From: Anaerolineales bacterium
Lineage (GTDB): Bacteria > Chloroflexota > Anaerolineae > Anaerolineales > UBA11579
Length of the DNA: 49,307 nt
Assembly (NCBI GenBank): GCA_040902265.1
Contig: JBBDXQ010000013.1
Location: forward strand, 1 to 49,307
Direction: 5' to 3'
A model generated the notes under the pieces. The model was not told the DNA's origin. It saw nothing but the letters and a program-made list of their open reading frames with translations, and made no database searches. Below, one piece after another: positions 9,247 to 44,965 of this stretch. How positions within the stretch are numbered: position 1 is the stretch's first letter; the number at the start of each line of letters is the position of its first letter. Made by a program: the position numbers and the translations under genes.

Positions 9247-11154
9247 CTAAGATAAGCCGATTATTCTGCCTGTTTCTACATCCAAGTCGATGTCGAAGAA
9301 CACCGGCCGGGTTGATAACCCAGGCATCGTAGAGATTTCGCCTGCCAGCGGATAGAGGAAGCCGGCTCCGATCGCCGCCCGCAGATCACGCACAGGGATG
9401 CGGAAGCCCTTAGGCACGCCTTTTAGCGCTGGGTCGTGGCTGATGCTGAGCGGAGTTTTGGCCATACAGATGGGGAGGTGATCGTACCCGAGCTTGGTGT
9501 ATTGATCGATCTTCTCCTCTGCTTCTGGAGAATAATCCACCCCGTCTGCCCCATAAATTCTCTTGGCTATCCGTTCGATCTTCTCTTTGATGGAAAACTC
9601 CAGCGGATATGTAAATTCAAATTCACCGGGTTGGTCAGCTGCCTTAACTACTTCCTCGGCTAATGCGACCGCCCCTGCGCCACCATTTGCCCAATGGCTG
9701 GAAACAGCGGCTGAGGTAGCACCGGCATCCAGGGCTGCCTGGCGCACCATCTCGAGCTCGGCTTCAGAGTCTGTCGGGAATTGATTGACGGCCACCACCA
9801 CAGGTACACCGAAACCAACCGCGATGCCGATGTTGTGCCTTAGGTTTGGCAAACCTTTTTCGAGCATTTCCAGATTTTCTTCTGTATAGGCAGAATCCAG
9901 CGGTTTTCCGGCAACCACCTTCGGCCCGCCACCATGCATTTTTAAGGCACGGATCGTGGCAACTAGCACGATGACATCCGGTCTGAGTCCTGAATAGAGG
10001 CACTTGATGTCAGCAAATTTCTCCAAGCCGATATCGGCCCCAAATCCTGCTTCAGTGACCACGTAATCGGCAAGCTTCAAGGCGATACGGTCAGCGATGA
10101 TCGAGCTGTTGCCGTGTGCGATATTGGCAAAGGGACCCGCGTGCACGAAAACCGGCGTCCCTTCCAAAGTTTGCATAAGGGTTGGTTTAACCGCGTCGCG
10201 CATCAGGACGGCCATAGCTCCCGCTACGCCGAGATCATCAGCAGTTACTGGTTGGCCAGCTTTGCTCATGCCAATAACGATACGTCCAAAACGTTCCCGC
10301 ATATCGGCCAAGTCGCTGGACAACGCCAGGATCGCCATGACCTCGCTGGCCACGGTTATGTCAAAAGCCGAAGCCCGCGTCAGGGAAGCTTCGTCAGCCG
10401 GGTTGGCTAACAGCATCTTGCGTAGGAAGCGGTCATTGGTGTCGATCACTCGCTTCCAGGTTATGCTGTGGAAGTCGATATCCAAACGCACTAAAAGGCG
10501 GCGTTGCTCAGCGTCCAGCGCTTCAACATCATCCCCAAAACCCAACCGCTGCATGCGCCGGCGAATGGCTGGCGCAACTTTGCGCGGTGCCCCTTTTTTC
10601 TTGGGCATCAGGTGATCAAAAAGCTGCTTGTCGCTTTGGCGTGACTCATGAAACATACGCGCATCAATAGCTGCGGCCAACAGGTTGTTAGCAGCCGTGA
10701 TGGCGTGAATATCACCGGTCAGGTGAAGATTAAACTCTTCCATTGGCACGACCTGGCTATACCCACCCCCGGCGGCCCCGCCTTTAATGCCAAAGGTCGG
10801 TCCCTGGCTGGGTTGGCGAATACAGGCAAAACTATCCAGCCCCAAGTGTGCCCCTAAAGCCTGGGCAAGCCCGATAGTTGTCGTAGTTTTCCCCTCGCCA
10901 AGCGGCGTGGGTGTGATAGCGGTAACCAGGATGTATTTGCCTAGGTTTTCTTTTTCCAATCGACCCAGGACGCTCAGATTCACTTTTGCCTTTGTGGTCC
11001 CATACAGCTCGAGTTCCTCCTCAAGCAGCCCGGCCATTTCGGCGATATCCTGGATCGGCAATAGCTTGGCCTTTTGCGCGATTTCAATATCCGCAGGGAC
11101 TTTGCCGTTGTGCGAAACAACTCCCCCGGGGTGGTGATTGACTGGTTGGCTCAT
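9247..11154 (-). CDS. fhs: formate--tetrahydrofolate ligase (long, eukaryote-like form)
   Basis: 635 aa. P-loop [13 protein letters not shown] plus [15 protein letters not shown] and [11 protein letters not shown]. Carries an insertion of about 55 aa relative to short bacterial FTHFS. Confidence 0.95.
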
Positions 11155-12864: not shown

Positions 12865-13273
12865 TGCTCCTTGTATCCCAAACAGGGCCTGGTTAAATAT
12901 TTCACCAAGTGTCCCAGCAATTGGACCATTATTTTATCTTCGAAAAAGCTACGGGTGTTGCGCAGACTAAAATCGCCGGCTTCTCCTCGGGTGACCATCC
13001 GCCCGCCTTATTCTTGCCTGCCCAGTCCCGGCCGATCATCGAATTGCAAAGCGGCGCAACCTGGGTGGTCCTAATCTCCGACTAGAAAAGTAAAAATTAC
13101 TTTGGGGGAATAAATCTTGTTGACCGTATAGCATTTTCCTATACCCAGCCATAGATAAATATAGAAGCTGCAGGGACAATCTGCCCTACTGGCGTTGTCG
13201 GTCTGCGCATATAGTCAAGCTAGCTCTTGATAAAGCCCAAACGCAAATAAACCCGGGTCAAGGGAGCAAACTT

Positions 13274-13603
13274 ATGGATGAGCTCATGCTTGCACGCGCT
13301 ACACGACAGGCAGCCCGTTGCCGTCTTTTAGGCAATGCCTGCCGATTGCAGATCCTTTGGAGCCTGTCCAATGGAGAGTTGTCCGTCAATGAAATCGCTA
13401 CCCGTGTGGGTGGCTCTCTTCAAAATGTGTCCCAGCACCTCAGCCTGCTCAAAGAGCATAAGTTGATCAGCTCGCGCCGGGATGGCCGCCATATCTACTA
13501 TCACATCAACGATTCTGAATGGCTGAGCAGCTGCATTGCCACATCGCGTATCTCAGGCGAGCGCCTGGAACATATCGAATTTCCCACACTTATCGGAGGA
13601 TGA
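13274..13603 (+). CDS. ArsR/SmtB-family winged-helix transcriptional regulator
   Basis: 109 aa with HTH LSVNEIATRVGGSLQNVSQHLSLLKEHKLI and wing RRDGRHIYYHI. It is the first gene of the sulfur/redox operon. Confidence 0.85.
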   Translation: MDELMLARATRQAARCRLLGNACRLQILWSLSNGELSVNEIATRVGGSLQNVSQHLSLLKEHKLISSRRDGRHIYYHINDSEWLSSCIATSRISGERLEHIEFPTLIGG

Positions 13604-13606
13604 AAA

Positions 13607-13861
13607 ATGACCACCCTAGATCTAACCACCCTTTCTGTGGCAAAAGTTGTCGATGCTCGTGCCATGTCCTGCCCCGGCCCTTTGCTTGAAGCGAAGAAAG
13701 CAATCGGCACGGTAAAGGTCGGCGAAGTGCTCGAGATTTGGTCCGGCGATGCGAACACCAAGGTAGACCTGCCGCGCTGGTGCCAGAAAGTCGGGCATGA
13801 ATTCCTGGGCTTTGATCCTGGCGAAGGTTATGAGCGCCTGTATGTGCGCCGCTTGAAGTAA
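13607..13861 (+). CDS. tusA: TusA/SirA-family sulfur carrier protein
   Basis: 84 aa with the CPGP active-site motif (ARAMSCPGPLLEAKK). Strong GGAGGA RBS. Starts 3 nt after arsR. Confidence 0.85.
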   Translation: MTTLDLTTLSVAKVVDARAMSCPGPLLEAKKAIGTVKVGEVLEIWSGDANTKVDLPRWCQKVGHEFLGFDPGEGYERLYVRRLK

Positions 13862-13888
13862 CCAACGTCCACCTCTGGAGAGCCACCG

Positions 13889-14338
13889 CTGCACGCCACT
13901 GCTCAGAAACGAGAGCCTAAGATCCTAATCCTGGGAACTTTTTCAGGAGGCTATGCCGGAGCCAACACGACCGGCCAGGCTCATGCTGAATACCCGGCGA
14001 ATACATACATCCTGCCGGTGGTTTGCCCGGTTCTGTTTCCGCCTGAGTTCTACTTGCGGGCTTTCAACAAAGGCATTGACGGCATCATCGTCATGTATAG
14101 CGGTACGGATAGCCCCTTCTCGGTAGAAGCGGATGGTACCTCCAAGCTGATCACCGCCAGCTACGGCTTGATGAAGGAACACGGCCTGGATATTCGCCGC
14201 CTGCGCCTCGCCGCTATCTGCACAGTGTGCGTCAAACCCTTCCTAAAGGAAGTCAACCAAATGAACACGCTACTTAACGAGATCGGCTTTGCCAAGGACG
14301 AATTGATGAAAATAGCCGTACCGGCGGTGGCCGCGTGA
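13889..14338 (+). CDS. MvhD/FlpD-like protein (cysteine-depleted); start uncertain
   Basis: MvhD-like similarity (KILILGTFSGGYAGANTTG...YPANTYILPVVCP...FYLRAFNKGIDGIIV) begins upstream of the first canonical start, GTG 14018. CTG 13889 has GGAGAG 8 nt upstream. The 3' end overlaps the next gene (GTGA). Confidence 0.6.
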   Translation: MHATAQKREPKILILGTFSGGYAGANTTGQAHAEYPANTYILPVVCPVLFPPEFYLRAFNKGIDGIIVMYSGTDSPFSVEADGTSKLITASYGLMKEHGLDIRRLRLAAICTVCVKPFLKEVNQMNTLLNEIGFAKDELMKIAVPAVAA

Positions 14339-15666
14339 GCGCCCAGCACTTCGATGCGCTGGTAGTGGGCGGCGGTATTGCCGGCTTGCAGACTGCAGTC
14401 GACCTTGCGGATCAAGGCTTCCAAGTGGCACTAGTAGAGCGTGAGCCCAGCGTGGGTGGCAAGATGATCGTTCTCAGTAAGGTCTTCCCCACCCTGGACT
14501 GCGGCAGCTGCATCACCACTCCCAAAATGGCCGCCGTCGCGCACCATCCCAACATCCAGTTGTTCACCTATTGTGAGGTGCAATCCATCCGCAAGAAAGG
14601 CGCTGGTTCCGTGGCCACTGTGCTGCAAAAGCCGCGCTACGTAGACGGGGCCAAGTGCACCGGGTGCCGTTTGTGCGAATACGCCTGCCCCATCACCATA
14701 GCGAACGAATTCGACCAGAATCTAGGCGCTTACCGCGCCATCCGCGTTCCTTTCTCCACTGCGGTTCCCCAAACTGCTGTGATGGATGCTGATAACTGCC
14801 TTTTCTGCGGGAAATGTGAAACGGTGTGCCCGGTGGACGCGATCGACTTCAACCAGAAGCCAGAGACCTTCACCATCCAGGCGACCGCGGTAATCCTGGC
14901 AACGGGTTTCAAACTGACACCGATGGATGCCAAGAAGGAATACAACGCCGCCAAGCTGCACAATGTGATCGATCCTCTGATGATGGAGCGCTTGCTGGCG
15001 CCAACAGGGCCATACGGCCGCATCCTGCGGCCTGGAGATGGCAAAGAGCCGACCTCGATTGCTTACGTGCAATGCGCCGGCTCACGAGATGCGAGCCTGG
15101 GCGTGGAATATTGCTCCCGAGTGTGCTGCATGTACGCCATCAAACAGGCCATGCTGCTCAACGGCGCCCTGCCTCTGGCAGACGTGACCCTTTACTACAT
15201 GGACATCCGTACCTTCGGCAAAGGGTACGAACAGTTCTATCAGAACGCCAAGGCCATGGGCGTGAACTTCGTGCGCGGCAAGGTAGCCGCTATCCGCGAG
15301 GATGAAAACCAGGATCCCATTGTGAAGGTGGAACTAATCGAGGAAGGCCGTGTAGAGGAGCGCACTCACGACCTGGTGGTCCTTTCCCTGGGCATGCTCC
15401 CCGCCGAGGATCTTTCCCTCGATCTAGGCAACTCACGTGGGCAGGATGGCTTTGTGCACATTCCCAACCCGAATGCCAACGCCAACGCCACCGACCAACC
15501 AGGAGTTTTTTCCACCGGCACCGCCATGGGGCCGATGGATATTGTGGACAGTATCGTTACAGCCAGCGCGGCTGCCTCCGCCGCTTCGGCCTATATTCGT
15601 GAATTTGGCGAGACGCCTTTTGTGGCCGAGCCAACAGAACCCCATAAGGAAGCCGTCTATGCCTGA
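14335..15666 (+). CDS. HdrA-like FAD/FeS oxidoreductase, QmoA-like
   Basis: 443 aa. FAD fold (VVGGGIAGLQTA), HdrA-type Cys motifs (TLDCGSC, YCSRVCC) and two ferredoxin CX2CX2CX3CP motifs. Confidence 0.85.
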   Translation: MSAQHFDALVVGGGIAGLQTAVDLADQGFQVALVEREPSVGGKMIVLSKVFPTLDCGSCITTPKMAAVAHHPNIQLFTYCEVQSIRKKGAGSVATVLQKPRYVDGAKCTGCRLCEYACPITIANEFDQNLGAYRAIRVPFSTAVPQTAVMDADNCLFCGKCETVCPVDAIDFNQKPETFTIQATAVILATGFKLTPMDAKKEYNAAKLHNVIDPLMMERLLAPTGPYGRILRPGDGKEPTSIAYVQCAGSRDASLGVEYCSRVCCMYAIKQAMLLNGALPLADVTLYYMDIRTFGKGYEQFYQNAKAMGVNFVRGKVAAIREDENQDPIVKVELIEEGRVEERTHDLVVLSLGMLPAEDLSLDLGNSRGQDGFVHIPNPNANANATDQPGVFSTGTAMGPMDIVDSIVTASAAASAASAYIREFGETPFVAEPTEPHKEAVYA

Positions 15667-17689
15667 GTCAAAGCAGCCACAAGACGAACTGCGCATTGGC
15701 GTCTATACCTGCTACTGCGGGGGGAATATCAGCGGTGTGGTCAATTGCGACAAAGTAGCCCAGGCAATGGGCAAACAATCGGGCGTGGTGGTTTCTCGCA
15801 CTGACATCTCCATGTGCTCGAGCGTAGGACAGGCCTTGATAGAAAACGACATCAAGGAATTGGGCATCAACCGAGTCGTTGTTGGGGCTTGCGCCCCTGC
15901 TTTGCACGAGCAGACCTTCCGCGGCGCAGTTACCCGCGCCGGCCTGAACCCATATTTGTATAACCATGTGGGTTTGCGTGAGCAGGCATCCTGGGCACAT
16001 CCACACGAGCCTGAAGCTGCCACCGAAAAGTCCATGCACCTGATGGCAGCCGGGATCGCCAAGGCTCGCTTGCTGGATCCCCTGGAGCCGATCCGCTTGG
16101 AAGCCAAGAAGCAGGCGCTGGTCATTGGCGGCGGGGTATCCGGGTTACGTGCAGCCCTGGATATGGCGCGGCAGGGCTTGGGTGTCATCGTGTTGGAAAA
16201 AGCTCCCTTCCTTGGCGGGCGTGTACCGCAACTTCACAAGACGTTTCCGAATCAAGACCCGGCCATCACTTTGGTCAATAACTTGATCCATGAAGTTAGC
16301 ACCCATCCTAAAATCACCATCTTTACCCAGGCCGAGATCGACGGCGTAAGCGGGTATGTAGGTAACTATTCCGTGCAGGTGCGCCAGCACAGCCGCGGGG
16401 TTAGCGCGGAGCGCGCTGAAGCCGTGATGGCAGCCAGCATGCAGGAAGTGCCAGATCCCTTCAATTACGGACTGACTCAGCGAAAGGTCGTCTACCGACC
16501 TTATGAAGGCAGTTATCCCCCCACCCCTGCAGTGGATTGGGAAAACTATGATGGCAACCCCATCCAAGTGGATGGGTATTCTGCGAAGTTGATCGATGAA
16601 ACGCAGTCTTTCGATCTCAGCGTAGGCGCCATCGTGGTGGCTACCGGCTTTGATCCTTACACCCCGCGCACTGGGGAGTACGGGTACGGTGAGTTGGCTG
16701 AAGTGGCCACTTTACCCCAACTGGTCAGGCATTTGGTCCTCCAGAAAGAAGCCAAGCAACTTTCCTGGAACGGAAAACATGTGCGCTCCCTGGCGCTGAT
16801 CCATTGTGTGGGCAGCCGTGAAATCGAAGGTCTGGATGAAGCACAGGCTGACGGGAATGTGAACAATTATTGCTCGCGAGTGTGCTGCTCTGCTGTGCTG
16901 CAAGCCTGCGGTGAACTGCATGAACAATTTCCCGAGCTGACTATCTACGACCTGCACCAGGACATCCGCACCTACGGCCGTGGCCACGAGCAACTCTATT
17001 ACAGCGCACTTGAAAACGGCGTGCGTTTCCTGCGCTTCGCCGGTGAAGAGCGACCCACAGTCAGTGCCGCGCCGGAGGACGACGACTACCCCATCCTGGT
17101 GAAGGTGAATGACCTGCTGACCCAGCATGAGGAAATCGAGATCGGCGTGGACCTGGTGGTGCTGGCCGTCGGCATGCAGCCCCGCGAAATCGACCAATTG
17201 GTGAAGATGCTGAAGATCACGCGGGGCGAAGACCGCTTCCTGTTGGAAGTACATCCCAAACTGCGACCCGTGGAAACAGCAATGAACGGCATCGTTTTGG
17301 CCGGCACAGCCCAAGGACCCATGAATATCAATGAGAGCCTGCTGGCAGCCTCTGCTGCAGCCGCCAAGGTCAGCTCGCTGCTTGGCCAAGGCTACGTCGA
17401 GCTGCCGCCCTTTGTTGCCAGCGTGAATACAGACCTGTGCACTGGCAGCGGGGCTTGCGTAAAGGTATGTGAATATGAAGGCGCGCTGAGCCTGCAAACC
17501 TTGGTGGAAGATGGCAAGGAAGTCACTCACGCGATAGTCACCCCGGCTAACTGTACAGGCTGCGGCGCATGTGTAGCTGCTTGCCCTAATGGCGCCATCG
17601 ACATCATGGGCTGGACCCTGGGCCAATACGATGCCATGGTGGACGCCATTGCCATGGAAATTCCCGTCAGCGAGGAGATCGCCCAATGA
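15659..17689 (+). CDS. HdrA-type FAD/FeS oxidoreductase, QmoB-like (lacking a fused MvhD domain)
   Basis: 676 aa from ATG 15659, overlapping the upstream stop by 8 nt. HdrA N-terminal Cys domain (YTCYCGGN...MCS), FAD fold (IGGGVSGLRAA), YCSRVCC, and two C-terminal CX2CX2CX3C motifs. The 750-aa track ORF extends upstream into the previous gene. Confidence 0.85.
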   Translation: MPESKQPQDELRIGVYTCYCGGNISGVVNCDKVAQAMGKQSGVVVSRTDISMCSSVGQALIENDIKELGINRVVVGACAPALHEQTFRGAVTRAGLNPYLYNHVGLREQASWAHPHEPEAATEKSMHLMAAGIAKARLLDPLEPIRLEAKKQALVIGGGVSGLRAALDMARQGLGVIVLEKAPFLGGRVPQLHKTFPNQDPAITLVNNLIHEVSTHPKITIFTQAEIDGVSGYVGNYSVQVRQHSRGVSAERAEAVMAASMQEVPDPFNYGLTQRKVVYRPYEGSYPPTPAVDWENYDGNPIQVDGYSAKLIDETQSFDLSVGAIVVATGFDPYTPRTGEYGYGELAEVATLPQLVRHLVLQKEAKQLSWNGKHVRSLALIHCVGSREIEGLDEAQADGNVNNYCSRVCCSAVLQACGELHEQFPELTIYDLHQDIRTYGRGHEQLYYSALENGVRFLRFAGEERPTVSAAPEDDDYPILVKVNDLLTQHEEIEIGVDLVVLAVGMQPREIDQLVKMLKITRGEDRFLLEVHPKLRPVETAMNGIVLAGTAQGPMNINESLLAASAAAAKVSSLLGQGYVELPPFVASVNTDLCTGSGACVKVCEYEGALSLQTLVEDGKEVTHAIVTPANCTGCGACVAACPNGAIDIMGWTLGQYDAMVDAIAMEIPVSEEIAQ

Positions 17690-17985
17690 CCAGCCAAGCA
17701 GATAAGAAGGCGCGCAGCGAACTGCTGAAACAGCTGCGAGAAACCCATGCGGCGACTCTTTCCCACACGCAGGAGTTACTGAAATCGCAGAAGCAGATCC
17801 AGCAAGGCATCAGCAAGGCCATCGAGGAGCAGCCTCGCAGCGTGCCTGAGGTAGCCGCAGCCACCGGAATTGCCAGCGAGACAGTGCTGTGGTGGCTTTG
17901 CACCATGAAGAAATACGGCCTGATCGCAGAAGAGGGTATGCAAAACGATTATCCCCTCTACAAGCTGGTCGAGGAGAAGAAATGA
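17686..17985 (+). CDS. small coiled-coil + winged-helix-like protein of unknown function
   Basis: 99 aa. ATGA overlaps at both ends couple it to the flanking redox genes. The C-terminal part (SVPEVAAATGIASETVLWWLCTMKKYGLIAEEG...YKL) looks like a wHTH. Confidence 0.5.
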   Translation: MTSQADKKARSELLKQLRETHAATLSHTQELLKSQKQIQQGISKAIEEQPRSVPEVAAATGIASETVLWWLCTMKKYGLIAEEGMQNDYPLYKLVEEKK

Positions 17986-19145
17986 CCAATCGCTCTGATC
18001 CTCAACTGTTACTTGAACTGAAGAAGTACGGGGCTGTGGGTATAGAGAATTGCTTCAACTGCGGGAATTGCACAGCCATATGCTCGCTGACCAGCAACGA
18101 CCATCTCTTCCCCCGCAACATGATCAGGCTGGCGCAATTGGGATTGAAAGATTCTCTGCGTGCCAGCAGCGACCCATGGCTGTGTTACTACTGCGGCGAT
18201 TGCTCTGCCAGCTGCCCGCGCGAGGCTGAGCCCGGGGAAACCATGATGGCGATCCGGCGCTGGTTGACCGCGCAGTACGACCGCAGCGGCCATGGGGCAC
18301 GGCTATATACATCAGAAAAAGCAGTGTGGTGGACTGTTGCTCGAATTTCACTAATCACATTGGCATTTTTTCTGGGGATGAACTTGCTGGGTCTAGGGCG
18401 AATCGAAACCGGGCAGGTTGCCTTGAACCAATTCGCGCCGGCCTTACTGGTATGGGGCTTTGTTTTGGCGCACTTCGCCTACCTGGGTACCAGGGTTTTC
18501 TCCGGGATCATCAATATGTTCAAGTCGACTATGGCCTCAACTTTACGCACCGGGAATATTCCGCTCAGTACCTATCTAAGCGAATTCAAAACTCTTGTAA
18601 TTCACTTTTTCACTCAGAAACGATGGACGCAGTGCAGCACTGAAAAGCCGCCGCGTCGCTGGTTGGTGCATATGTTGCTTGTAAGCGGCTATCTCACCAT
18701 GTTGACCCTTATTGTCGGCTTTCTGTGGTGGTTCCAAACTGACGAACTTCTCCCCGTGTACCACCCCCAACGGTGGCTGGGCTATTACGCCACGATCGTG
18801 CTGATCTATGCCTCCACAGATATGTTGATTGGGCGCCTTCGAAAGAAAGACCAGATGCACCGGTTTTCGCATGCCAGCGATTGGCTTTTCCCAGCCTTCA
18901 TCCTTTTTGGGGCGGTGAGCGGCATCCTCGTTCACATCCTGCGATACGCCGGTCTTCCCTGGCCAACGTACCTGGTTTACCTGATCCACGTCATGGCCAT
19001 GGTGGCCATGCTGGATACTGAAGTTGGCATCGGCAAGTGGGCTCATCTGATCTATCGCCCGATGGCCATATACCTGGAAGCCGTAAAGGTCAAAGTAAGG
19101 CAAACACGCGAATCTGCACCTGGAGTTGTCGTGCCGGTTGATTAA
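17982..19145 (+). CDS. QmoC-like subunit: HdrC-type di-[4Fe-4S] domain fused to a cytochrome b-like membrane domain
   Basis: 387 aa from ATG 17982. Has CFNCGNCTAIC and CYYCGDCSASCP, then about 6 TM helices with His inside four of them (LAHFAY, LVHMLL, LVHIL, LIHVM). Confidence 0.75.
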   Translation: MTNRSDPQLLLELKKYGAVGIENCFNCGNCTAICSLTSNDHLFPRNMIRLAQLGLKDSLRASSDPWLCYYCGDCSASCPREAEPGETMMAIRRWLTAQYDRSGHGARLYTSEKAVWWTVARISLITLAFFLGMNLLGLGRIETGQVALNQFAPALLVWGFVLAHFAYLGTRVFSGIINMFKSTMASTLRTGNIPLSTYLSEFKTLVIHFFTQKRWTQCSTEKPPRRWLVHMLLVSGYLTMLTLIVGFLWWFQTDELLPVYHPQRWLGYYATIVLIYASTDMLIGRLRKKDQMHRFSHASDWLFPAFILFGAVSGILVHILRYAGLPWPTYLVYLIHVMAMVAMLDTEVGIGKWAHLIYRPMAIYLEAVKVKVRQTRESAPGVVVPVD

Positions 19146-19172
19146 ACATTTACGAGGTAACCAAGAAAAATT

Positions 19173-19370
19173 ATGTCTGAAAAACTGATGATCGTATGCC
19201 AGTTGTTCAATGACGTGCTGGACCTGGGCGGCCATGTGGTGTTGTGCGTGCTGGCGCTCGAAAACAAAGACATCGACCCCAAGGATGTGCGCGACAGCCG
19301 CATCAGCATCGGAGAGGCGCCGCCTTTCCTGATGGCGGCTGAAGGCGCGGGCATGACCTTTACATTCTGA
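19173..19370 (+). CDS. hypothetical small protein (possibly a truncated DsrE-like paralog)
   Basis: 65 aa with GC3-rich codons but a weak RBS. The N-terminal KLMIVC and C-terminal FLMAAEGAGMTFTF loosely resemble the first half of DsrE-family proteins. Confidence 0.35.
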   Translation: MSEKLMIVCQLFNDVLDLGGHVVLCVLALENKDIDPKDVRDSRISIGEAPPFLMAAEGAGMTFTF

Positions 19371-19397
19371 GCCGACCCTAAAAGAGGAGGTGTGTGA

Positions 19398-19766
19398 ATG
19401 AGCGATGAAATTGGAAAGATGGTGGTAGTGCTGAACCATGAGGATGCCAATTCTGTGCTGGCCTCGCTGGTGATGGCGGCCTCGATTGCCACTTGCGGCG
19501 AGCAGGTGATGTTCTTCGTGCAACCGGGCGGAGCCAGGATGCTGGCCAAGGGCGAATTGGAAAAGTTCCAGGGTCTCAAAGGCCAGCCAGACCCCGTGCA
19601 CCTGTACGAATCGATCCGCACTTTGGATGGCCGCTTCATCCTGTGCGAACTTGGATTGGAGATCTGCGACATCAAGAAAGACGACCTGCGCGATGGAGTA
19701 GAGGTCATGATGGCCTCATCCTTCATGTTCGATATTGAAGGCGCCAAGCTTAGTTTTTCCTATTGA
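19398..19766 (+). CDS. DsrE/DsrF-like sulfur-relay family protein
   Basis: 122 aa with a strong GAGGAGG RBS. DsrE-like fold pattern (KMVVVLNHED...VMFFVQPGG...FILCELGL). Confidence 0.75.
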   Translation: MSDEIGKMVVVLNHEDANSVLASLVMAASIATCGEQVMFFVQPGGARMLAKGELEKFQGLKGQPDPVHLYESIRTLDGRFILCELGLEICDIKKDDLRDGVEVMMASSFMFDIEGAKLSFSY

Positions 19767-19775
19767 GGAGGAAGC

Positions 19776-20027
19776 ATGCCGAATACAATCACGATCACCA
19801 AAACCTTGGACGTGTGCGGGCTGATCTGCCCTTACCCGGACATGGACACCCTGGCCACTTTGAAAAAGATGGCCAAGGGCGAGGTCCTGGAAGTCATCCT
19901 GGATTATCCACTGTCCCTGGAGCGCATCCCGCGCAACCTGACCAAGCAGGGCCATAAGTTGTTGAGCGTGGAGCGAATTGACGGCCCCAAGCACCGCATC
20001 ATCATCGAAGCGCAAGGCCTCAAATAG
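19776..20027 (+). CDS. TusA/YeeD-like sulfur carrier protein
   Basis: 83 aa with a CPYP motif (LDVCGLICPYPDM). GAGGAGG RBS. Lies immediately upstream of the yeeE-like gene, as in yeeE-yeeD pairs. Confidence 0.85.
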   Translation: MPNTITITKTLDVCGLICPYPDMDTLATLKKMAKGEVLEVILDYPLSLERIPRNLTKQGHKLLSVERIDGPKHRIIIEAQGLK

Positions 20028-20150
20028 CCACGAAGCGGGGAAGCAGAGGAGGCAAGTCCTCGATGAAACTCCCCCCTGGGCCAACCCCCAATAGTCCCAC
20101 AGGTCAAATGGCGCCGGCTGGAGCGAGATTGACCGCATAGAGGAGCACAC

Positions 20151-21194
20151 ATGGATCTTATCGTTCTTTCTGGTTTAGGCATCGGCGTGGTATTTGGCTA
20201 TGCCCTGCAGCGCGGCCGCTTCTGCATGAACTCGGCGACGCGCGACTCGGTGATGCTGAAGGATTACACGCTGTTGAAGGCTGTCGGCGTGGCGCTGATC
20301 GTGCAAATGATCGGCTTTGCCCTGCTGGAAGTAAGCGGGCTGCAGGCGACCCTGCCGAAGCCCTTCTTCTGGGGAGCCAACCTGGTGGGCAGCTTCACCT
20401 TTGGCGTGGGTATGGTGCTGGCTGGCGCATGCGCCAGCGGCATCACCTATCGCACGGGTGAAGGCATGGTGAGCGCCATGGTGGCCGCCATTGGCTTCAC
20501 GCTGGGTGCGTTCGTCACTGCGGCAGGCGGCTTCATGAACCCGATCGCAGCCAACCTGCAGACCAGCACGGTCATCCAAACCGCCGAAGGCAGCAACCCG
20601 ACATTGGCGAACCTGCTCGGCGTGCCTTATTGGATGCTGGCCCTGGGCATTGCCCTGGCAGCCATCGTGGTCTGGGTGCTGTTGGCCAAACCTTTCAGCC
20701 TGGAAAGCACCAAAGCCAAGGCCCAAGAAGTAAAGGGCCTTTCGCACGGATGGGGATGGTTGACCACCGGCCTGGTCATCGGCCTGATCGCCATCGTGGC
20801 ATTCCCATTGTCTGTGGCTGCCCAGCGCCCCTCGCCCATCGGCATTACGGATGGCTGGCTTGGCCTGATGAAGGCGATCTTCATGGGCGGAGCCTGGAGT
20901 TGGGCGCCTTTGCTGATCATCGGCATCATCCTCGGTTCTTTGGCAGCCGCGGTGGTCAACAAGGAGTTCAAGTTCCGGACACCCTCGATCGGCATGCTAG
21001 CGCAGGTGATGATTGGCGGCTTGCTGATGGGCTTCGGGGCGGTATGCTCCAGCGGCTGCAACATCGGCCATATCCTGAGCGGGCTGCCGCAGTTGGCGAT
21101 TGGCTCGATCGTGGCCACATTGGCGATCGTGGCCGGCGGCTGGCTGACGGCATACTTGATCTTCAACGTGTTGCGCAAGAGCCCCGCGGTCTAG
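20151..21194 (+). CDS. yeeE: YeeE/YedE-family sulfur-compound (thiosulfate-type) transporter
   Basis: 347 aa, polytopic. Conserved Cys-containing segments are QRGRFCM, LAGACASG and GAVCSSGCNIGH. Confidence 0.9.
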   Translation: MDLIVLSGLGIGVVFGYALQRGRFCMNSATRDSVMLKDYTLLKAVGVALIVQMIGFALLEVSGLQATLPKPFFWGANLVGSFTFGVGMVLAGACASGITYRTGEGMVSAMVAAIGFTLGAFVTAAGGFMNPIAANLQTSTVIQTAEGSNPTLANLLGVPYWMLALGIALAAIVVWVLLAKPFSLESTKAKAQEVKGLSHGWGWLTTGLVIGLIAIVAFPLSVAAQRPSPIGITDGWLGLMKAIFMGGAWSWAPLLIIGIILGSLAAAVVNKEFKFRTPSIGMLAQVMIGGLLMGFGAVCSSGCNIGHILSGLPQLAIGSIVATLAIVAGGWLTAYLIFNVLRKSPAV

Positions 21195-21214
21195 GGCTGA
21201 CGGAGAAAGAGTGA

Positions 21215-21249
21215 AAGCAGGCGCGCTATTATGAGGCGCCTGCTTTTTT
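21215..21249 (+). terminator. rho-independent terminator after yeeE
   Basis: A 10-bp perfect stem, AAGCAGGCGC/GCGCCTGCTT, with an 11-nt loop, followed by a T run. Confidence 0.7.
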
Positions 21250-21521: not shown

Positions 21522-22454
21522 TCAGGCCAGGACCAGTTGTTCGGGGAGCGAAAGCAGGTCGGCATTTTCTTGCGCGTGGACAAAGCTCCAAAACACATCG
21601 CGGGGACGGTGGGCTGCGCCGACGCGCTTGCGTATCATGTAGACCGGGCGCTGCAAGCGGAGGTCTTCCACGGCGAGTTGGGCAATGGCGCCGTGCTTGA
21701 TCGGCTCGATCACGGCCAGGGAGGAGACAAAGGAAACACCGTACCCAGCCGCCACGGTAGCTATGATTGCTTCGGCGTTACCTAATTCCAATAAAACACG
21801 CAGGTCATCTTCGCCTATATCATGCTTGCCTAATTCGGCCAGCACGACACGGCGGGTGCCTGATTCCGGCTCGCGCATGATCAGCGGTTCTTCCAATAAC
21901 TCCTGAGGCTCGATGGAGCTGCGTTTGGCCCAGCGATGGTCGGCTGGCACGATGAAGCTGATGTTGTCCTTGAAGAAACTCTGGGTTTCGAAATTTGGGT
22001 CAGTGATCTCTGAACTAACCACGCCGATGTGGGCTTCGCCGCGCATCAGGTCCAGCGCGGCGCGTTCGGGGCGGCAGGTGAGGATGCGGGCGCGGATGTT
22101 GGGGTAGCGCTTGCAGAAGCGGGCTACGATGAGGGGCAGGATGTATTTTCCGGAGGTGGTGCTGCAGGAGATACGCAGCTCCCCCACGATGTCTTCCTCA
22201 AGGGAGTTCATCATCTCTTTCAAATTGACGAAATCCTGGATCAGGCGCCGCGCCCAGGGGAGCAGCACGCGGCCGGCCTCGGTCAGCTCCAGGCCGGTGT
22301 TGCTGCGGGTGAAGAGAGCGACGCCCAATTCGCGCTCCAGGGTCTTGATCTGGTGGCTGACGCTGGGTTGGCTGAGGTGCAGCAGCTTGGCGACCTCGGA
22401 GAAGCTGAGGCTCTCGGCGGCGCAAAGAAAGGTTTCGATCTTATCGGCGTTCAT
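21522..22454 (-). CDS. LysR-family transcriptional regulator
   Basis: 310 aa from ATG 22454. N-terminal HTH (FLCAAESLSFSEVAKLLHLSQPSVSHQIKTLE) and a LysR substrate-binding domain. The track's 22 upstream codons are judged non-coding. Confidence 0.9.
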   Translation of the reverse strand: MNADKIETFLCAAESLSFSEVAKLLHLSQPSVSHQIKTLERELGVALFTRSNTGLELTEAGRVLLPWARRLIQDFVNLKEMMNSLEEDIVGELRISCSTTSGKYILPLIVARFCKRYPNIRARILTCRPERAALDLMRGEAHIGVVSSEITDPNFETQSFFKDNISFIVPADHRWAKRSSIEPQELLEEPLIMREPESGTRRVVLAELGKHDIGEDDLRVLLELGNAEAIIATVAAGYGVSFVSSLAVIEPIKHGAIAQLAVEDLRLQRPVYMIRKRVGAAHRPRDVFWSFVHAQENADLLSLPEQLVLA

Positions 22455-22577
22455 GGTTAATCTGTGGATTAAGTATGCCCAGATCAGCCAGCGGCCAGTA
22501 GTGACAATCGTCACAAGCAAATGTGGCGAAAACCGGCTCTACCTACGGGTAAAGCGAGTATAATTAAGATGAATCGC

Positions 22578-33974: not shown

Positions 33975-34663
33975 CAGGGCCCCAAGGTTTCCGAGGTTAG
34001 CTTGCGGAACAAGGTGAGCCAGACCACGTACAAGCCAACGATGATCAAGATCACCAGCAATAATAGGCCGGGGGCGAGGTCAAGGGAAGCCATATCGGTT
34101 CCATGAGCGCCAAGGAAGGTCACTAAAAAGATCAGAGGCGCCCTGCCTACTAAACTGGCCAAGGCAAATTGCTGCAAGCTGATCGAACTTAGCCCGGCTA
34201 CATAATTCATGGTATCCGTGGGGAAAACCGGCAGCATAAAACTGGTCAGGAAAAAGACCAGCCCATGCTTCCTGGACACGGCATCCCAGCGGTCGATGAC
34301 CTTGGCCGGCGCCAGCCGGTCGACCACCGGGCGGCCCCAACGGCGGGCAATGGCAAAGGCCAGCAAACCAGAGCCCACTGTGACGAACCAGTTCAGGGCG
34401 AAACCAGGAACCAGGCCGTATATATATCCCCCCGCCAAATAGAATACATCGCCCGGCACAATGGAAATCAGTATTTGGACAAGGTGCAGGGCCGAAAGCA
34501 CAAGCGGGCCAAGCCAACCAAACTTATAGATATAGGCGGTAAAGGCATTGCGGTCACTGATAAAGGTCAATAAGGTCAGCAGCGGTTCCCGCAGCACCCA
34601 TAAGATCAATAGCGCTAACAGGAGGGCGAGGACCAGCACCGGCCAGTTCTTGAATCGTCTCAA
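33974..34663 (-). CDS. TVP38/TMEM64 (DedA-related) family membrane protein
   Basis: 229 aa. Signature VPGDVFYLAGGYIYG and ARRWGRPVVDRL. Confidence 0.85.
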   Translation of the reverse strand: MRRFKNWPVLVLALLLALLILWVLREPLLTLLTFISDRNAFTAYIYKFGWLGPLVLSALHLVQILISIVPGDVFYLAGGYIYGLVPGFALNWFVTVGSGLLAFAIARRWGRPVVDRLAPAKVIDRWDAVSRKHGLVFFLTSFMLPVFPTDTMNYVAGLSSISLQQFALASLVGRAPLIFLVTFLGAHGTDMASLDLAPGLLLLVILIIVGLYVVWLTLFRKLTSETLGP

Positions 34664-34691
34664 TGGGTTGGCACCTTGACCTGTGGGAAGT

Positions 34692-37007: not shown

Positions 37008-37011
37008 GCAG

Positions 37012-38550: not shown

Positions 38551-38609
38551 AGCGGCATTGTAGCAGAGGGAAGCATGGAAGCCAGCTAGTCAAGGCTATA
38601 ATCCCTGCT

Positions 38610-39311: not shown

Positions 39312-39625
39312 GAGCGTAGTTGGCGCAAAATGCGCGCCTGCGCCTCGGCGCTCTCCATATCCAGGATCGACACCAGTTTGTCTCGTCCGGTTTCCCCGGC
39401 AATTATTTCGATGCGCGTGCGCGGCACATCCAACACCTTGGCCAGGAATTCGATCAGGGCTTCGTTGGCCTTACCCTCCAGCGGAGGAGCGGTAAGGCGA
39501 ATCTTGACGGTCTGGTCGGCCAACACCTCCACGACCTCGTCGCGGCGAGCGCGCGGCGTCACGCGGATAGCCAGGGCTGCGCCGCGCCGGCTATTTGAGA
39601 GTCGTCGGGGTTTTCGTGCTGGCAT
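39308..39625 (-). CDS. yggU: DUF167 (YggU) family protein
   Basis: 105 aa. VTPRARRDEV...IRLTAPPLEGKANEALIEFLAKVL matches the YggU signature. Confidence 0.85.
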   Translation of the reverse strand: MPARKPRRLSNSRRGAALAIRVTPRARRDEVVEVLADQTVKIRLTAPPLEGKANEALIEFLAKVLDVPRTRIEIIAGETGRDKLVSILDMESAEAQARILRQLRS

Positions 39626-39626
39626 G

Positions 39627-39872: not shown

Positions 39873-39883
39873 TCAAGCTCCAT

Positions 39884-40606: not shown

Positions 40607-40609
40607 GGT

Positions 40610-41395: not shown

Positions 41396-41396
41396 G

Positions 41397-43799: not shown

Positions 43800-43811
43800 G
43801 GGGGCAACCGT

Positions 43812-44900: not shown

Positions 44901-44965
44901 TAGAATCGATTGTACCGTAGGAGCATGAATAGGACTTTAGTGTTGCTTATTGACCGCAACCAAGG

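What the first reader, a model, noticed from the sequence alone, without database searches (positions are those of the whole stretch)
13274..21249. Qmo-type membrane redox complex embedded in a TusA/DsrE/YeeE sulfur-carrier operon, with no AprAB, Sat or HdrB
Eleven co-directional genes run from arsR to a strong terminator. Most junctions are overlapping or tightly spaced: GTGA at 14335, an 8-nt overlap at 15659, and ATGA at 17686 and 17982. The three redox proteins are a 443-aa HdrA-like protein, a 676-aa HdrA-like protein, and an HdrC-type di-cluster domain fused to a 6-TM domain with four membrane-embedded His. Together they reproduce the subunit logic of QmoABC. From established knowledge, QmoABC is the quinone-interacting complex that partners APS reductase in sulfate reducers and some sulfur oxidisers. 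No aprAB, sat, dsr or CCG-domain (HdrB) catalytic subunit is visible here. The MvhD-like module is a separate upstream gene. The complex is bracketed by two TusA-type carriers (CPGP, CPYP), a DsrE-like protein and a YeeE/YedE transporter. As I recall, the right half resembles the yedE-tusA-dsrE ('YTD') clusters reported in sulfur-disproportionating bacteria. Inference: this is a membrane or quinone-linked electron module acting on protein-bound sulfane sulfur or thiosulfate-derived sulfur. I do not know this wiring as a characterised system.
Basis: partly seen in the sequence, partly recalled or inferred. Interest (0 to 1): 0.8.

Follow-up and report, generated by a model that had tools for sequence, protein, structure and literature searches.

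The report
Sulfur-carrier-linked HdrA–QmoC membrane redox complex
This operon encodes a membrane-anchored flavin/iron-sulfur complex, built like the Qmo complex of sulfate reducers but wired to small sulfur-carrier proteins instead of APS reductase or a hydrogenase; it is conserved in many Chloroflexota, Planctomycetota and archaeal loci, and I found no published description or characterisation of it.

Summary
Eleven co-directional ORFs (13274-21194) end at a strong terminator, with the stated overlaps.

The conserved core is tusA – mvhD-like – short hdrA – long hdrA – ~100-aa winged-helix protein – qmoC-like – dsrE. It is complete in 52 of 54 related Chloroflexota loci. It recurs in Planctomycetota and in distant, partly archaeal, contigs. 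The tusA2–yeeE half is accessory (15 of 61 loci).

No apr, sat, dsr or hdrB gene is in the window or recurs beside relatives.

By descent this is not canonical QmoABC. QmoC scores 200 bits against a cut-off of 300. MvhD is unfused. In a small tree the HdrA paralogues group with hydrogenase-linked relatives, not with apr-linked QmoA/QmoB. It fits the 'type II Qmo' noted in the literature as having unknown function.

Sister operons carry Mvh [NiFe]-hydrogenase genes where this one carries TusA and DsrE. The MvhD subunit changes with the partner. Every sulfur-carrier-linked copy (60 of 60, plus 2 distant) lacks the canonical Fe-S cysteine pattern and has an invariant CxxC. None of 7 other copies has that CxxC.

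Best reading: a quinone-linked, possibly bifurcating, oxidoreductase acting on carrier-bound sulfane sulfur. Direction and chemistry are inferred, not shown.

The parts
13274..13603 (+). ArsR/SmtB-family regulator, first gene of the cluster
   Evidence: It scores 79.7 bits on NF033788 and has a weak BigR hit. An ArsR gene lies upstream in 45 of 54 Chloroflexota loci. Cys16 is 78% and Cys87 94% conserved. A role in sensing persulfide is inferred only.
13607..13861 (+). TusA-type sulfur carrier 1 (CPGP), core component
   Evidence: PF01206 at 73.6 bits. Cys22 is invariant in 62 homologues. The gene always lies directly upstream of the mvhD-like gene.
13889..14338 (+). MvhD/FlpD-like subunit lacking the canonical MvhD Fe-S cysteine pattern and carrying an invariant CxxC; the start codon here is CTG
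   Evidence: PF02662 hit. The AF2 model has pLDDT 79.8, and the top Foldseek hits are MvhD chains 5odc_D and 5odh_D with TM about 0.7. Cys111 and Cys114 are present in 60 of 60 homologues, Cys46 in 43 of 60 and a Cys at position 75 in 28 of 60. The CTG at 13889 aligns with the ATG of L001.
14335..15666 (+). Short HdrA-like flavoprotein (QmoA-like). It has the thioredoxin-reductase-like FAD domain, an inserted 2x[4Fe-4S] ferredoxin domain and the C..C..CC cluster motif
   Evidence: It aligns to HdrA 5odc_A residues 146-565 at E = 9e-113. Fourteen of its 15 Cys are invariant in 63 homologues.
15659..17689 (+). Long HdrA-like protein (QmoB-like). It spans the full HdrA length, has no cysteines in the inserted domain, has 7 Cys in the C-terminal ferredoxin domain, and has no fused MvhD
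   Evidence: It aligns to 5odc_A residues 2-633 at E = 5.6e-138. The motif corresponding to the short HdrA's TLDCxxC is replaced (NQDPAIT).
17686..17985 (+). Small protein of about 100 aa (long helix plus winged-helix-like domain), translationally coupled to both neighbours. It is conserved next to QmoC-like genes whatever the partner module
   Evidence: ATGA overlaps on both sides. It is present in 74 loci. Homologues in a hydrogenase-linked locus (L091), in TusA-linked loci and on two truncated contigs give E = 1e-16 to 1e-33. It is absent from canonical L086. The AF2 model has pLDDT 72 and no significant PDB match.
17982..19145 (+). QmoC-like membrane subunit: an HdrC-type 2x[4Fe-4S] domain fused to an HdrE/NarI-like haem-b-type membrane domain
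   Evidence: NF038018 qmoC at 200.5 bits (cut-off 300), covering model positions 4-358 of 360.
19173..19370 (+). Remnant of a DsrE-like gene (dsrEa) with a 55-codon in-frame internal deletion
   Evidence: Comparison with the 120-aa orthologue L001:11188-11550.
19398..19766 (+). DsrE-like sulfur carrier (DrsE_2), intact
   Evidence: PF13686 hit. Cys83 is invariant in 26 homologues. A DsrE-type gene follows qmoC in 68 of 69 Chloroflexota loci.
19776..20027 (+). TusA-type carrier 2 (CPYP), accessory module
   Evidence: PF01206 at 72.7 bits. Cys18 is invariant. TusA2 and YeeE occur together in 15 of 61 loci.
20151..21194 (+). YeeE/YedE-family (Sulf_transp) membrane transporter, accessory module
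   Evidence: PF04143 at 242 bits. NF052577 TsuA at 279 bits, below its cut-off of 400.
21216..21249 (+). Intrinsic terminator closing the cluster
   Evidence: A 9-bp perfect stem, AGCAGGCGC/GCGCCTGCT, followed by T6.
21522..22520 (-). Convergent LysR-family regulator, a conserved neighbour
   Evidence: HTH_1 and LysR_substrate domains. Homologues lie just downstream in 64 loci, mostly on the opposite strand.

Best explanation
**What the cluster encodes.** A membrane-anchored redox complex with these parts:
- a QmoC-like subunit (two [4Fe-4S] clusters plus a haem-b-type membrane domain that talks to the menaquinone pool);
- a heterodimer-like pair of HdrA flavoproteins, one short and one long;
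- a small winged-helix subunit;
- an MvhD-like adaptor.

**The swap of partner.** In sister operons the same scaffold is joined through a normal Fe-S MvhD to an Mvh-type [NiFe] hydrogenase. In canonical QmoABC it serves APS reductase. Here the hydrogenase genes are replaced by the cysteine-persulfide carriers TusA and DsrE. The adaptor lacks the canonical MvhD cluster-cysteine pattern and has an invariant CxxC.

**Proposed mechanism (inferred).** I infer that the complex couples two-electron thiol/persulfide chemistry of carrier-bound sulfane sulfur to the quinone pool:

Cys-S(-) + HS(-) <-> Cys-S-S(-) + 2e(-)

The reaction would occur at or via the MvhD-like CxxC. Ferredoxin could be a second, bifurcated partner through the C-terminal ferredoxin domain of the long HdrA.

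**Direction (inferred).** I lean towards the oxidative direction, with sulfur-derived electrons entering where hydrogenase electrons enter in relatives and leaving to menaquinone. I put that at about 0.4, against about 0.25 for the reductive direction.

**Other parts (inferred roles).** The ArsR protein, and perhaps the LysR protein, would switch the operon on in response to reactive sulfur. The optional DsrE-TusA2-YeeE module would import the sulfur substrate.

**Shown versus inferred.** Shown: gene content, conservation, domain and cysteine patterns, and the partner swap. Inferred: complex formation, substrate, direction and bifurcation.
For: **Conservation.**
- The order tusA-mvhD-hdrA-hdrA-small-qmoC is complete in 52 of 54 Chloroflexota loci that have enough flank. 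A dsrE-type gene follows in 68 of 69.
- In Planctomycetota the same set occurs with dsrE first, in 4 of 4 loci.
- It also occurs on contigs whose QmoC is only 28-29% identical to the window's: L084 (archaeal-looking neighbours) and L087.

**Tight coupling.** The genes overlap by 4-8 nt.

**Modular partner swap.**
- L046 carries hdrA-hdrA-mvhD-mvhG-mvhA-qmoC-hypA.
- L091 carries mvhB-mvhD-mvhG-mvhA-hdrA-small-qmoC-hycI.
- L086 carries sat-aprB-aprA-qmoA-qmoB-qmoC.

**The adaptor co-varies with the partner.** The CxxC is present in 60 of 60 TusA-linked MvhD-like proteins and in the divergent L084 and L087 copies. It is absent in 7 of 7 hydrogenase-linked, archaeal or QmoB-fused copies, which keep CxxC...C...CxxxxC-type patterns.

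**Fold retained.** The AF2 model matches MvhD (TM about 0.7). The CxxC sits at a strand-to-helix junction.

**Carriers look functional.** The active-site Cys is invariant in TusA1, TusA2, DsrEa and DsrEb.

**Cofactor sites conserved.** The HdrA-like pair keeps its FAD and Fe-S motifs. QmoC keeps its Fe-S cysteines and its histidines.

**No alternative catalytic partner nearby.** The window and recurrent neighbours lack apr, sat, dsr and hdrB.

**From established knowledge.**
- In solved Mvh-Hdr complexes MvhD is the electron entry adaptor to HdrA.
- TusA and DsrE work in oxidative sulfur pathways (rDsr, sHdr; PMC11094781).
- ArsR-type SqrR, BigR and sHdrR repressors control sulfide and thiosulfate oxidation genes (PMC12423496).
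- The midpoint of menaquinone (about -75 mV) and ferredoxin (about -450 mV) is close to S0/HS- (about -270 mV).
Against: - There are no expression, biochemical or structural data. Physical association of TusA or DsrE with the complex is inferred from synteny alone.
- The direction of electron flow is unresolved. Canonical Qmo in sulfate reducers works reductively.
- The CxxC could, in some members, be part of a rewired Fe-S site together with Cys46 and Cys75. About 19 of 60 members have four Cys.
- The window's own copy looks slightly degraded (CTG start on mvhD, deleted dsrEa). The system may be impaired in this genome.
- Only 49 kb of the genome is visible, so apr, sat, dsr, sqr or a hydrogenase could be encoded elsewhere.
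- The HdrA tree is a small neighbour-joining tree with one canonical reference.
- The fate of the sulfur product is unknown.
Confidence: 0.5

Rival explanations
1. The same complex runs reductively. Menaquinol, alone or confurcated with reduced ferredoxin, reduces TusA/DsrE-bound persulfide, polysulfide or S-thiosulfonate to H2S (plus sulfite). The purpose would be an electron sink, detoxification of reactive sulfur species, or supply of sulfide for assimilation from thiosulfate imported by YeeE.
For: Canonical QmoABC delivers quinol electrons to a sulfur acceptor (PMC10504309). The complex has only FAD, Fe-S, haem and thiols, which is enough for S-S cleavage. The YeeE/TusA2 module resembles the thiosulfate uptake pair YeeE/YeeD (PMC11073785). 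From established knowledge, persulfide-sensing repressors also control a persulfide reductase in Enterococcus. Many hosts are anaerobic Anaerolineae.
Against: Quinol (about -75 mV) to sulfane (about -270 mV) is uphill, and spending ferredoxin on it is wasteful. YeeE is present in only 15 of 61 loci. MvhD is the electron entry adaptor in the solved relatives and in the sister hydrogenase operons. TusA and DsrE are best known from oxidative pathways.
Confidence: 0.25
2. It is a genuine Qmo complex that serves an APS reductase/Sat or Dsr system encoded elsewhere in the genome. TusA and DsrE would merely feed that pathway.
For: The architecture matches QmoABC, and QmoC hits the qmoC model end to end. 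The literature reports 'type II' Qmo in the sulfate reducers Ammonifex degensii and Vulcanisaeta moutnovskia (PMC10504309). Only 49 kb of this genome is visible.
Against: No apr, sat or dsr gene is in the window or among the recurrent neighbours of 80 related loci. In the canonical locus these genes are adjacent. The QmoC score is below the equivalog cut-off. The HdrA paralogues lie outside the canonical QmoA/QmoB pair. Type II Qmo is reported in genomes lacking Apr and Dsr (PMC10504309). Hosts such as Anaerolineae, Pirellulales and Phycisphaerales are not known sulfate reducers (my own knowledge).
Confidence: 0.07
3. TusA and DsrE are not substrates but maturation or sulfur-supply factors, for example for Fe-S assembly of a cluster-rich complex. 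On this reading the complex's real partner, such as an unlinked hydrogenase, NADH or ferredoxin, is unrelated to sulfur. Alternatively the carriers handle selenium.
For: TusA has biosynthetic roles in E. coli (my own knowledge). TusA2 has its best NCBIfam hit to YedF-type selenium-metabolism proteins, at 66 bits against a cut-off of 79. The scaffold is partner-promiscuous.
Against: Hydrogenase-linked and apr-linked versions of the same scaffold need no TusA or DsrE. The MvhD cysteine switch co-varies perfectly with the presence of TusA and DsrE. An ArsR-type regulator and, in a quarter of loci, a sulfur transporter are attached. YeeE scores far better on the thiosulfate-transporter models than on the selenium models, 279 versus 100 bits.
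Confidence: 0.1

Closest known systems
QmoABC (canonical, 'type I'), the quinone-interacting membrane-bound oxidoreductase that partners APS reductase
   Same: It has two HdrA-derived flavoproteins and an HdrC/HdrE-fusion membrane subunit, and it has no HdrB. An MvhD-type module is present. QmoC aligns end to end with the eight Fe-S Cys and three His invariant.
   Different: The QmoC score is below the equivalog cut-off. MvhD is a separate gene with a different cysteine set, whereas it is fused to QmoB in L086. There is an extra small subunit of about 100 aa. The HdrA paralogues appear to arise from a different duplication. The complex is linked to tusA and dsrE rather than sat-aprBA.
'Type II' Qmo (Neukirchen et al. 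2023, PMC10504309, citing Chernyh et al. 2020)
   Same: [quoted passage not shown] The window's proteins behave this way.
   Different: In what I could search, that work does not report the TusA/DsrE linkage, the MvhD cysteine switch or the small subunit. Orthology to the named type II references (A. degensii, V. moutnovskia) could not be tested here.
MvhAGD-HdrABC of methanogens, and the hydrogenase-linked HdrA-QmoC operons found here (L046, L091, L090)
   Same: It shares the HdrA fold and cofactor motifs, with E = 1e-138 to 5odc_A. It shares the MvhD fold, and the same small subunit and QmoC as L091.
   Different: It has no MvhA or MvhG and no HdrB or HdrC catalytic module. MvhD lacks the canonical cluster-cysteine pattern. 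The sulfur carriers take the hydrogenase's place in the operon.
sHdr-LbpA sulfur-oxidising heterodisulfide-reductase-like system with TusA and DsrE3 (PMC11094781)
   Same: An HdrA-type flavoprotein system is genetically tied to TusA and DsrE carriers and to an ArsR-type regulator.
   Different: sHdr is soluble, needs sHdrB1/B2, C1/C2 and lipoate-binding LbpA, and has no QmoC or quinone link. None of those genes is present here.
YTD cluster (yedE-tusA-dsrE-chp) of sulfur disproportionators, and the YeeE/YeeD thiosulfate uptake pair
   Same: The right-hand accessory module contains YeeE, TusA and two DsrE-like genes (PMC12998232, PMC9751629).
   Different: The module is optional (15 of 61 loci). 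Its scores are below the TsuA and TsuB cut-offs. Complete YTD clusters are reported only in Desulfobacterota and Nitrospirota (PMC12998232). Orthology was not testable.

Membership tests
Canonical QmoABC (type I) | QmoC is an HdrC-like 2x[4Fe-4S] domain fused to an HdrE/NarI-like haem-b membrane domain | tested here: met
   Alignment covers NF038018 positions 4-358 of 360. Eight Cys and His230, His336 and His355 are invariant, including against apr-linked QmoC. Haem binding itself was not testable.
Canonical QmoABC (type I) | QmoC reaches the curated equivalog score | tested here: not met
   200.5 bits against a cut-off of 300. In the neighbour-joining tree of representatives, apr-linked QmoC (P0369) lies in a distant clade.
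Canonical QmoABC (type I) | QmoB carries a fused C-terminal MvhD-like domain | tested here: not met
   The window's long HdrA ends after the ferredoxin domain, and MvhD is a separate upstream gene. Canonical L086 QmoB is 739 aa and includes FlpD.
Canonical QmoABC (type I) | QmoA and QmoB are orthologous to apr-linked QmoA and QmoB | tested here: not met
   In the neighbour-joining tree, canonical QmoA and QmoB pair together (0.905). The window's short HdrA-like protein groups with the short HdrA-like paralogues of other loci, including hydrogenase-linked ones (0.915). The tree is small and has one canonical reference.
Canonical QmoABC (type I) | Genetic linkage or co-occurrence with aprBA and sat | tested here: not met
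   These genes are absent from the 49-kb window and from the recurrent neighbours of 80 loci. Whole-genome co-occurrence was not testable.
Type II Qmo (PMC10504309) | QmoAB closer to typical HdrA than to bacterial QmoAB, and found with or without Apr/Dsr | tested here: inconclusive
   The short HdrA is 43% identical to M. thermolithotrophicus HdrA against 36% to canonical QmoA. The top NCBIfam hits are HdrA2 and HdrA.
Mvh-Hdr (MvhAGD-HdrABC) | HdrB (CCG domains) and HdrC catalytic module, and MvhA/MvhG hydrogenase | tested here: not met
   No CCG, NiFeSe_Hases or Oxidored_q6 hit in the window. These domains are present in the sister loci L046 and L091.
Mvh-Hdr (MvhAGD-HdrABC) | MvhD with the conserved cluster-binding cysteines | tested here: not met
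   The CCxxC and CxxxxC motifs are absent. An invariant CxxC occurs at a new position.
sHdr-LbpA system | sHdrB1/B2, sHdrC1/C2 and lipoate-binding LbpA encoded with sHdrA | tested here: not met
   None was found in the window. sHdrA (6tjr) is only a distant hit, at E = 1e-23 to 1e-34.
YTD cluster | [quoted passage not shown] | not testable with these tools
   The composition is similar: YeeE, TusA2 and two DsrE-like genes. No reference YTD sequences were available.
YeeE/YeeD (TsuA/TsuB) thiosulfate uptake | Scores above the NCBIfam cut-offs for TsuA and TsuB | tested here: not met
   YeeE scores 279 bits (cut-off 400) on NF052577 and 145 bits (cut-off 645) on NF041049. TusA2 scores 28.9 bits (cut-off 147.5) on NF041048. 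Family-level membership in Sulf_transp and TusA is met.

The most novel reading that the evidence does not exclude
This would be a previously unrecognised class of energy-converting sulfur enzyme: a flavin-based electron-bifurcating sulfane-sulfur (persulfide) : menaquinone/ferredoxin oxidoreductase. In it, the Fe-S adaptor MvhD of hydrogenase-linked complexes has been converted into a CxxC thiol/persulfide redox site that is served by TusA and DsrE carriers. It would give Chloroflexota, Planctomycetota and several archaea, none regarded as sulfur oxidisers, a way to draw both quinol and low-potential ferredoxin from sulfide or sulfane sulfur.
Probability: 0.2. Interest if true: 0.9.

Novelty: new variant of a known kind. 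Interest (0 to 1): 0.72.

Why it matters
**Known parts, unfamiliar combination.** HdrA-type complexes are the standard example of flavin-based electron bifurcation. TusA and DsrE relays are the standard cytoplasmic sulfur-trafficking device. I found no description of an operon that replaces the hydrogenase or APS-reductase partner of an HdrA-QmoC scaffold with sulfur carriers and remodels the MvhD adaptor to a CxxC.

**It is common.**
- 4,230 QmoC-like sequence clusters (90% identity) match at E <= 1e-5 and 3,016 MvhD-like clusters at E <= 1e-3 in public data. Both counts include family members not linked to TusA.
- The cluster is found in dozens of Anaerolineae, Ardenticatenaceae and Promineifilaceae genomes, in Planctomycetota and in archaeal-looking contigs.
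- Any function it has would therefore affect how sulfur cycling is read from metagenomes of sediments, sludge and subsurface.

**It bears on open questions.**
- It would give a function to the 'type II Qmo' genes that the literature flags as unexplained.
- Annotation pipelines call these genes QmoC, heterodisulfide reductase or F420-non-reducing hydrogenase subunit. Those labels could wrongly suggest sulfate reduction, methanogen-type Hdr or hydrogenase activity.

Tried and rejected
1. **Is the 99-aa protein DsrD-like or DsrC-like?** Pfam and NCBIfam gave only sub-threshold HTH hits. The AF2 model (pLDDT 72, from a 7-sequence alignment) matched only generic winged-helix regulators at E > 0.3. 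No specific relationship could be claimed. It has no conserved Cys.

2. **Homologue search for the 99-aa protein.** The word-indexed search returned only 7 proteins. Its breadth was established from loci with a local HMM instead.

3. **Labelling QmoC clades with the NCBIfam cut-off.** I expected the representative that passes the cut-off (P0307, 305.7 bits) to be apr-linked. It turned out to be another dsrE-tusA-mvhD-hdrA-hdrA-small-qmoC locus. The cut-off therefore does not cleanly separate the two wirings. Context look-ups were needed.

4. **Solved structures.** No QmoABC structure is in the PDB copy.

5. **Promoters and operators.** The sigma-70-type scan found no convincing promoter upstream of arsR. 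Only a weak palindrome at 13195-13218 was found. No operator is claimed.

6. **Literature.** Eight searches on combinations of Qmo, HdrA, MvhD, TusA, DsrE, YeeE, Chloroflexi, Anaerolineae and YTD found no description of this cluster. Subscription-only papers were not searchable.

7. **Short contigs.** Look-ups for P0300 and P0306 landed on contigs too short to show context.

8. **BigR/SqrR-type sensor.** A dithiol at the same positions was considered for ArsR. The conserved Cys residues (16 and 87) are not at the BigR positions as I recall them, so persulfide sensing remains a guess.

Full report
**1.

Listing ORFs and scanning them against Pfam and NCBIfam gives eleven co-directional ORFs on the + strand:

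| Coordinates | Product |
|---|---|
| 13274-13603 | ArsR/SmtB regulator |
| 13607-13861 | TusA (CPGP) |
| ends at 14338 | FlpD/MvhD-like gene |
| 14335-15666 | 443-aa HdrA-like protein |
| 15659-17689 | 676-aa HdrA-like protein |
| 17686-17985 | 99-aa ORF |
| 17982-19145 | 387-aa QmoC-like protein |
| 19173-19370 | 65-aa ORF |
| 19398-19766 | DrsE_2 protein |
| 19776-20027 | second TusA (CPYP) |
| 20151-21194 | Sulf_transp/YeeE protein |

- The cluster ends at a 9-bp perfect G+C-rich hairpin followed by T6, at 21216-21249.
- Pfam scans of 40 window ORFs, including all plausible ORFs of at least 150 aa, found housekeeping genes: MreBC, PBP2, MinCD, FTHFS, an aldehyde dehydrogenase, a LysR regulator, thiol-disulfide proteins and Cu-ATPases. 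They found no AprA/B, ATP sulfurylase, sulfite reductase or CCG/HdrB domain.

Two corrections:

- The mvhD-like reading frame has no canonical start codon before 14018. Its orthologous start is a CTG at 13889, which aligns with the ATG of the closest relative.
- The 65-aa ORF is a DsrE-like gene that has lost 55 internal codons in frame. It is 120 aa in the relative.

**2. Source organism and conservation**

The best QmoC-like hits are 60-85% identical proteins from Anaerolineales and other Chloroflexota metagenome-assembled genomes.

Two context look-ups showed the same gene order in an Anaerolineales genome and an Ardenticatenaceae genome. A scan of species-representative genomes returned 80 loci. 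I mapped the eleven window proteins onto them with phmmer.

| Feature | Count |
|---|---|
| tusA-mvhD-hdrA-hdrA-small-qmoC complete, Chloroflexota loci with enough upstream flank | 52 of 54 |
| dsrE-type gene directly after qmoC, Chloroflexota | 68 of 69 |
| arsR upstream, Chloroflexota | 45 of 54 |
| tusA2-yeeE extension | 15 of 61 |
| Planctomycetota loci with the same core, dsrE placed first | 4 of 4 |

- The yeeE half is therefore accessory.
- A convergent LysR gene follows the cluster in 64 loci.
- No sulfate-reduction gene is a recurrent neighbour. The recurring flanking genes are the LysR regulator, a radical-SAM protein, a VKOR-like protein, small NifX/NifB-like proteins and MinD-like Fe-S ATPases. 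These last identities were read from the sequences by eye, not confirmed by profile search.

**3. What the redox proteins are**

- **Long HdrA-like protein.** It aligns over its full length with structurally solved methanogen HdrA (5odc_A residues 2-633, E = 5.6e-138). It has no cysteines in the inserted ferredoxin domain and has 7 Cys in the C-terminal ferredoxin domain.
- **Short HdrA-like protein.** It corresponds to HdrA residues 146-565. It keeps the inserted 2x[4Fe-4S] domain, the TLDCxxC motif and the C..C..CC cluster motif. The two paralogues thus look like a complementary heterodimer that replaces the HdrA homodimer.
- **QmoC-like protein.** It matches the NCBIfam qmoC model end to end but at 200.5 bits, below the cut-off of 300. 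It has eight invariant Fe-S cysteines, 5-6 hydrophobic segments, and three histidines that are invariant even against apr-linked QmoC.

**4. Relationship to canonical Qmo**

An exhaustive search of 50%-identity representatives found 1,989 QmoC-like clusters at E <= 0.001. A neighbour-joining tree of them has several deep clades. Context look-ups for representatives of different clades gave three kinds of wiring:

| Wiring | Locus | Gene order |
|---|---|---|
| Canonical | L086 | sat-aprB-aprA-qmoA-qmoB(MvhD fused, 739 aa)-qmoC |
| Hydrogenase-linked | L046 (Heimdallarchaeota) | hdrA-hdrA-mvhD-mvhG-mvhA-qmoC-hypA |
| Hydrogenase-linked | L091 | mvhB-mvhD-mvhG-mvhA-hdrA-small-qmoC-hycI |
| Hydrogenase-linked | L090 | qmoC with NuoF-like, HdrA, FlpD and MvhGA genes |
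| Sulfur-carrier-linked | L084, L087 | dsrE-tusA-mvhD-hdrA-hdrA-small-qmoC |

- The QmoC proteins of L084 and L087 are only 28-29% identical to the window's.
- L093 is archaeal-looking and truncated upstream. It also shows hdrA-hdrA-small-qmoC.

In a small tree of the shared HdrA core (18 sequences, 403 columns):

- Apr-linked QmoA and QmoB pair with each other (bootstrap 0.905).
- The window's short paralogue groups with the short paralogues of sulfur-carrier-linked and hydrogenase-linked loci (0.915).
- The short paralogue is 43% identical to methanogen HdrA and 36% identical to canonical QmoA.

This agrees with published statements. QmoAB arose at least twice. A 'type II', closer to HdrA, occurs in organisms with or without Apr and Dsr, and its role is unclear (PMC10504309). 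So the window's complex works like a Qmo in architecture. It is not a member of the canonical Qmo family.

**5.

*The ~100-aa protein.* It lies between the long HdrA and QmoC and is translationally coupled on both sides. It is homologous across sulfur-carrier-linked loci and a hydrogenase-linked locus (E = 1e-16 to 1e-33). It is absent from the canonical loci. It behaves like a fourth subunit of this lineage rather than a sulfur-specific regulator. Its model is a long helix plus a winged-helix-like domain with no significant structural match.

*The MvhD-like protein.* It keeps the MvhD fold. The AF2 model has pLDDT 80, and the top Foldseek hits are 5odc_D and 5odh_D at TM about 0.7. Its cysteines have been exchanged:

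- The CCxxC and CxxxxC motifs of MvhD are gone.
- A CxxC (ICTVC) at a strand-to-helix junction is invariant in 60 of 60 copies. Cys46 is kept in 43 of 60 and a Cys at position 75 in 28 of 60. Seven of 60 copies keep only the CxxC.
- The same CxxC is present in the very divergent sulfur-carrier-linked copies of L084 and L087. It is absent from all seven hydrogenase-linked, archaeal or QmoB-fused MvhD domains examined.

This co-variation between adaptor chemistry and partner module is the strongest evidence that TusA and DsrE are functional partners of the complex and not bystanders.

**6. Mechanism**

*Shown:*
- A conserved, tightly coupled gene set.
- Intact FAD, Fe-S and His motifs.
- Invariant active-site cysteines in TusA1, TusA2, DsrEa and DsrEb.
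- The partner swap and the adaptor cysteine switch.

*Inferred:*
- The proteins form one membrane complex that connects the menaquinone pool, through QmoC, with two-electron thiol/persulfide chemistry on carrier-bound sulfane sulfur at or via the CxxC.
- Ferredoxin may be a second partner.

*Why I lean towards the oxidative direction (about 0.4):*
- MvhD is the electron entry adaptor in the solved Mvh-Hdr complexes and in the sister operons.
- TusA and DsrE relays, and ArsR-type sulfane-responsive repressors, are known from oxidative systems (PMC11094781, PMC12423496).
- The S0/HS- couple (about -270 mV) lies near the midpoint of menaquinone and ferredoxin, so bifurcation would be feasible.

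*The reductive alternative (about 0.25):* the complex would be a persulfide or thiosulfonate reductase acting as electron sink, detoxification route or assimilation route. It fits the canonical Qmo direction and the optional YeeE importer.

*Less likely readings:* service to an Apr or Dsr system encoded elsewhere, or a purely maturational or selenium-related role for the carriers.

*A chemical limit.* Nothing in the cluster could insert oxygen atoms to make sulfite. The chemistry is probably limited to forming or cleaving S-S bonds.

**7. Novelty and limits**

- Eight full-text searches found no description of this wiring. The nearest statement is that type II Qmo occurs without Apr and Dsr and needs experimental study. 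Subscription-only literature was not searchable.
- The right-hand module resembles the YTD cluster of sulfur disproportionators in composition. Orthology could not be tested.

I rate this as a new variant of a known kind. Known modules (HdrA, QmoC, MvhD, TusA, DsrE) appear in an undescribed, widespread combination with a remodelled adaptor.

Limits:
- Only 49 kb of the genome is visible.
- The trees are small neighbour-joining trees with a single canonical reference.
- Complex formation, substrate and direction are inferred.
- The window's own copy carries two possibly damaging changes (CTG start on mvhD, deleted dsrEa).

Noticed in passing
window 13862-14018 (start region of the mvhD-like gene): The gene has no ATG, GTG or TTG where its homologues start. 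A CTG at 13889, preceded by GGAGAG, aligns exactly with the ATG of the closest relative, L001. This could be a rare start codon, a sequencing error or an inactivating change.
   Followed up: partly
window 19173-19370: This DsrE-like gene has a 55-codon in-frame internal deletion (65 aa, against 120 aa in L001). The second DsrE-like gene at 19398-19766 is intact. It could be gene decay or an assembly artefact.
   Followed up: partly
window 21522-22520 (- strand): A LysR-family regulator lies convergent to the cluster. Homologues occupy the same position in 64 related loci, so it is probably part of the system's regulation.
   Followed up: partly
L046 3766-11872; L091 2416-9639; L090 201-9352: In these sister operons the same HdrA/QmoC scaffold is joined to Mvh-type [NiFe] hydrogenase genes and maturation genes (hypA, hycI). 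L091 also carries the same small subunit. They imply a membrane-bound H2:quinone, possibly bifurcating, complex in Heimdallarchaeota and other organisms.
   Followed up: partly
L037 717-7226: On one Chloroflexota contig, arsR is followed directly by a QmoC-like gene. A second, divergent qmoB-small-qmoC-dsrE set lies on the opposite strand. This suggests two paralogous systems or a rearrangement.
   Followed up: no
window 38610-49293: This stretch holds a thiol-disulfide and copper homeostasis neighbourhood. It includes a glutaredoxin-like/DUF2085 protein, an AhpC/TSA-thioredoxin-like protein, a DsbD/CcdA-type membrane protein, an L,D-transpeptidase and two P-type (HMA) ATPases. The last ATPase is cut by the window end.
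   Followed up: no
window 34001-40000: AT skew is unusually high (0.23-0.29) over the region that encodes large YfhO-like and unannotated membrane proteins on the - strand.
   Followed up: no
Related loci, 2-8 kb downstream of qmoC (for example L020 10306-11663, L010 13898-14314): Small genes that look by eye like the NifX/NifB family, together with MinD/ParA-like ATPases carrying Fe-S motifs, recur near the cluster in 8-11 loci. A radical-SAM gene and a gene that looks like a thioredoxin-VKOR fusion each recur in 15 loci. These identities were not confirmed by profile search.
   Followed up: no
window 9247-11154 (- strand) and L001 1757-3664: Formate-tetrahydrofolate ligase lies just upstream of the cluster in both the window and its closest relative. 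It lies further upstream in the window. The intervening genes differ: an aldehyde dehydrogenase in the window and FG-GAP proteins in L001.
   Followed up: no
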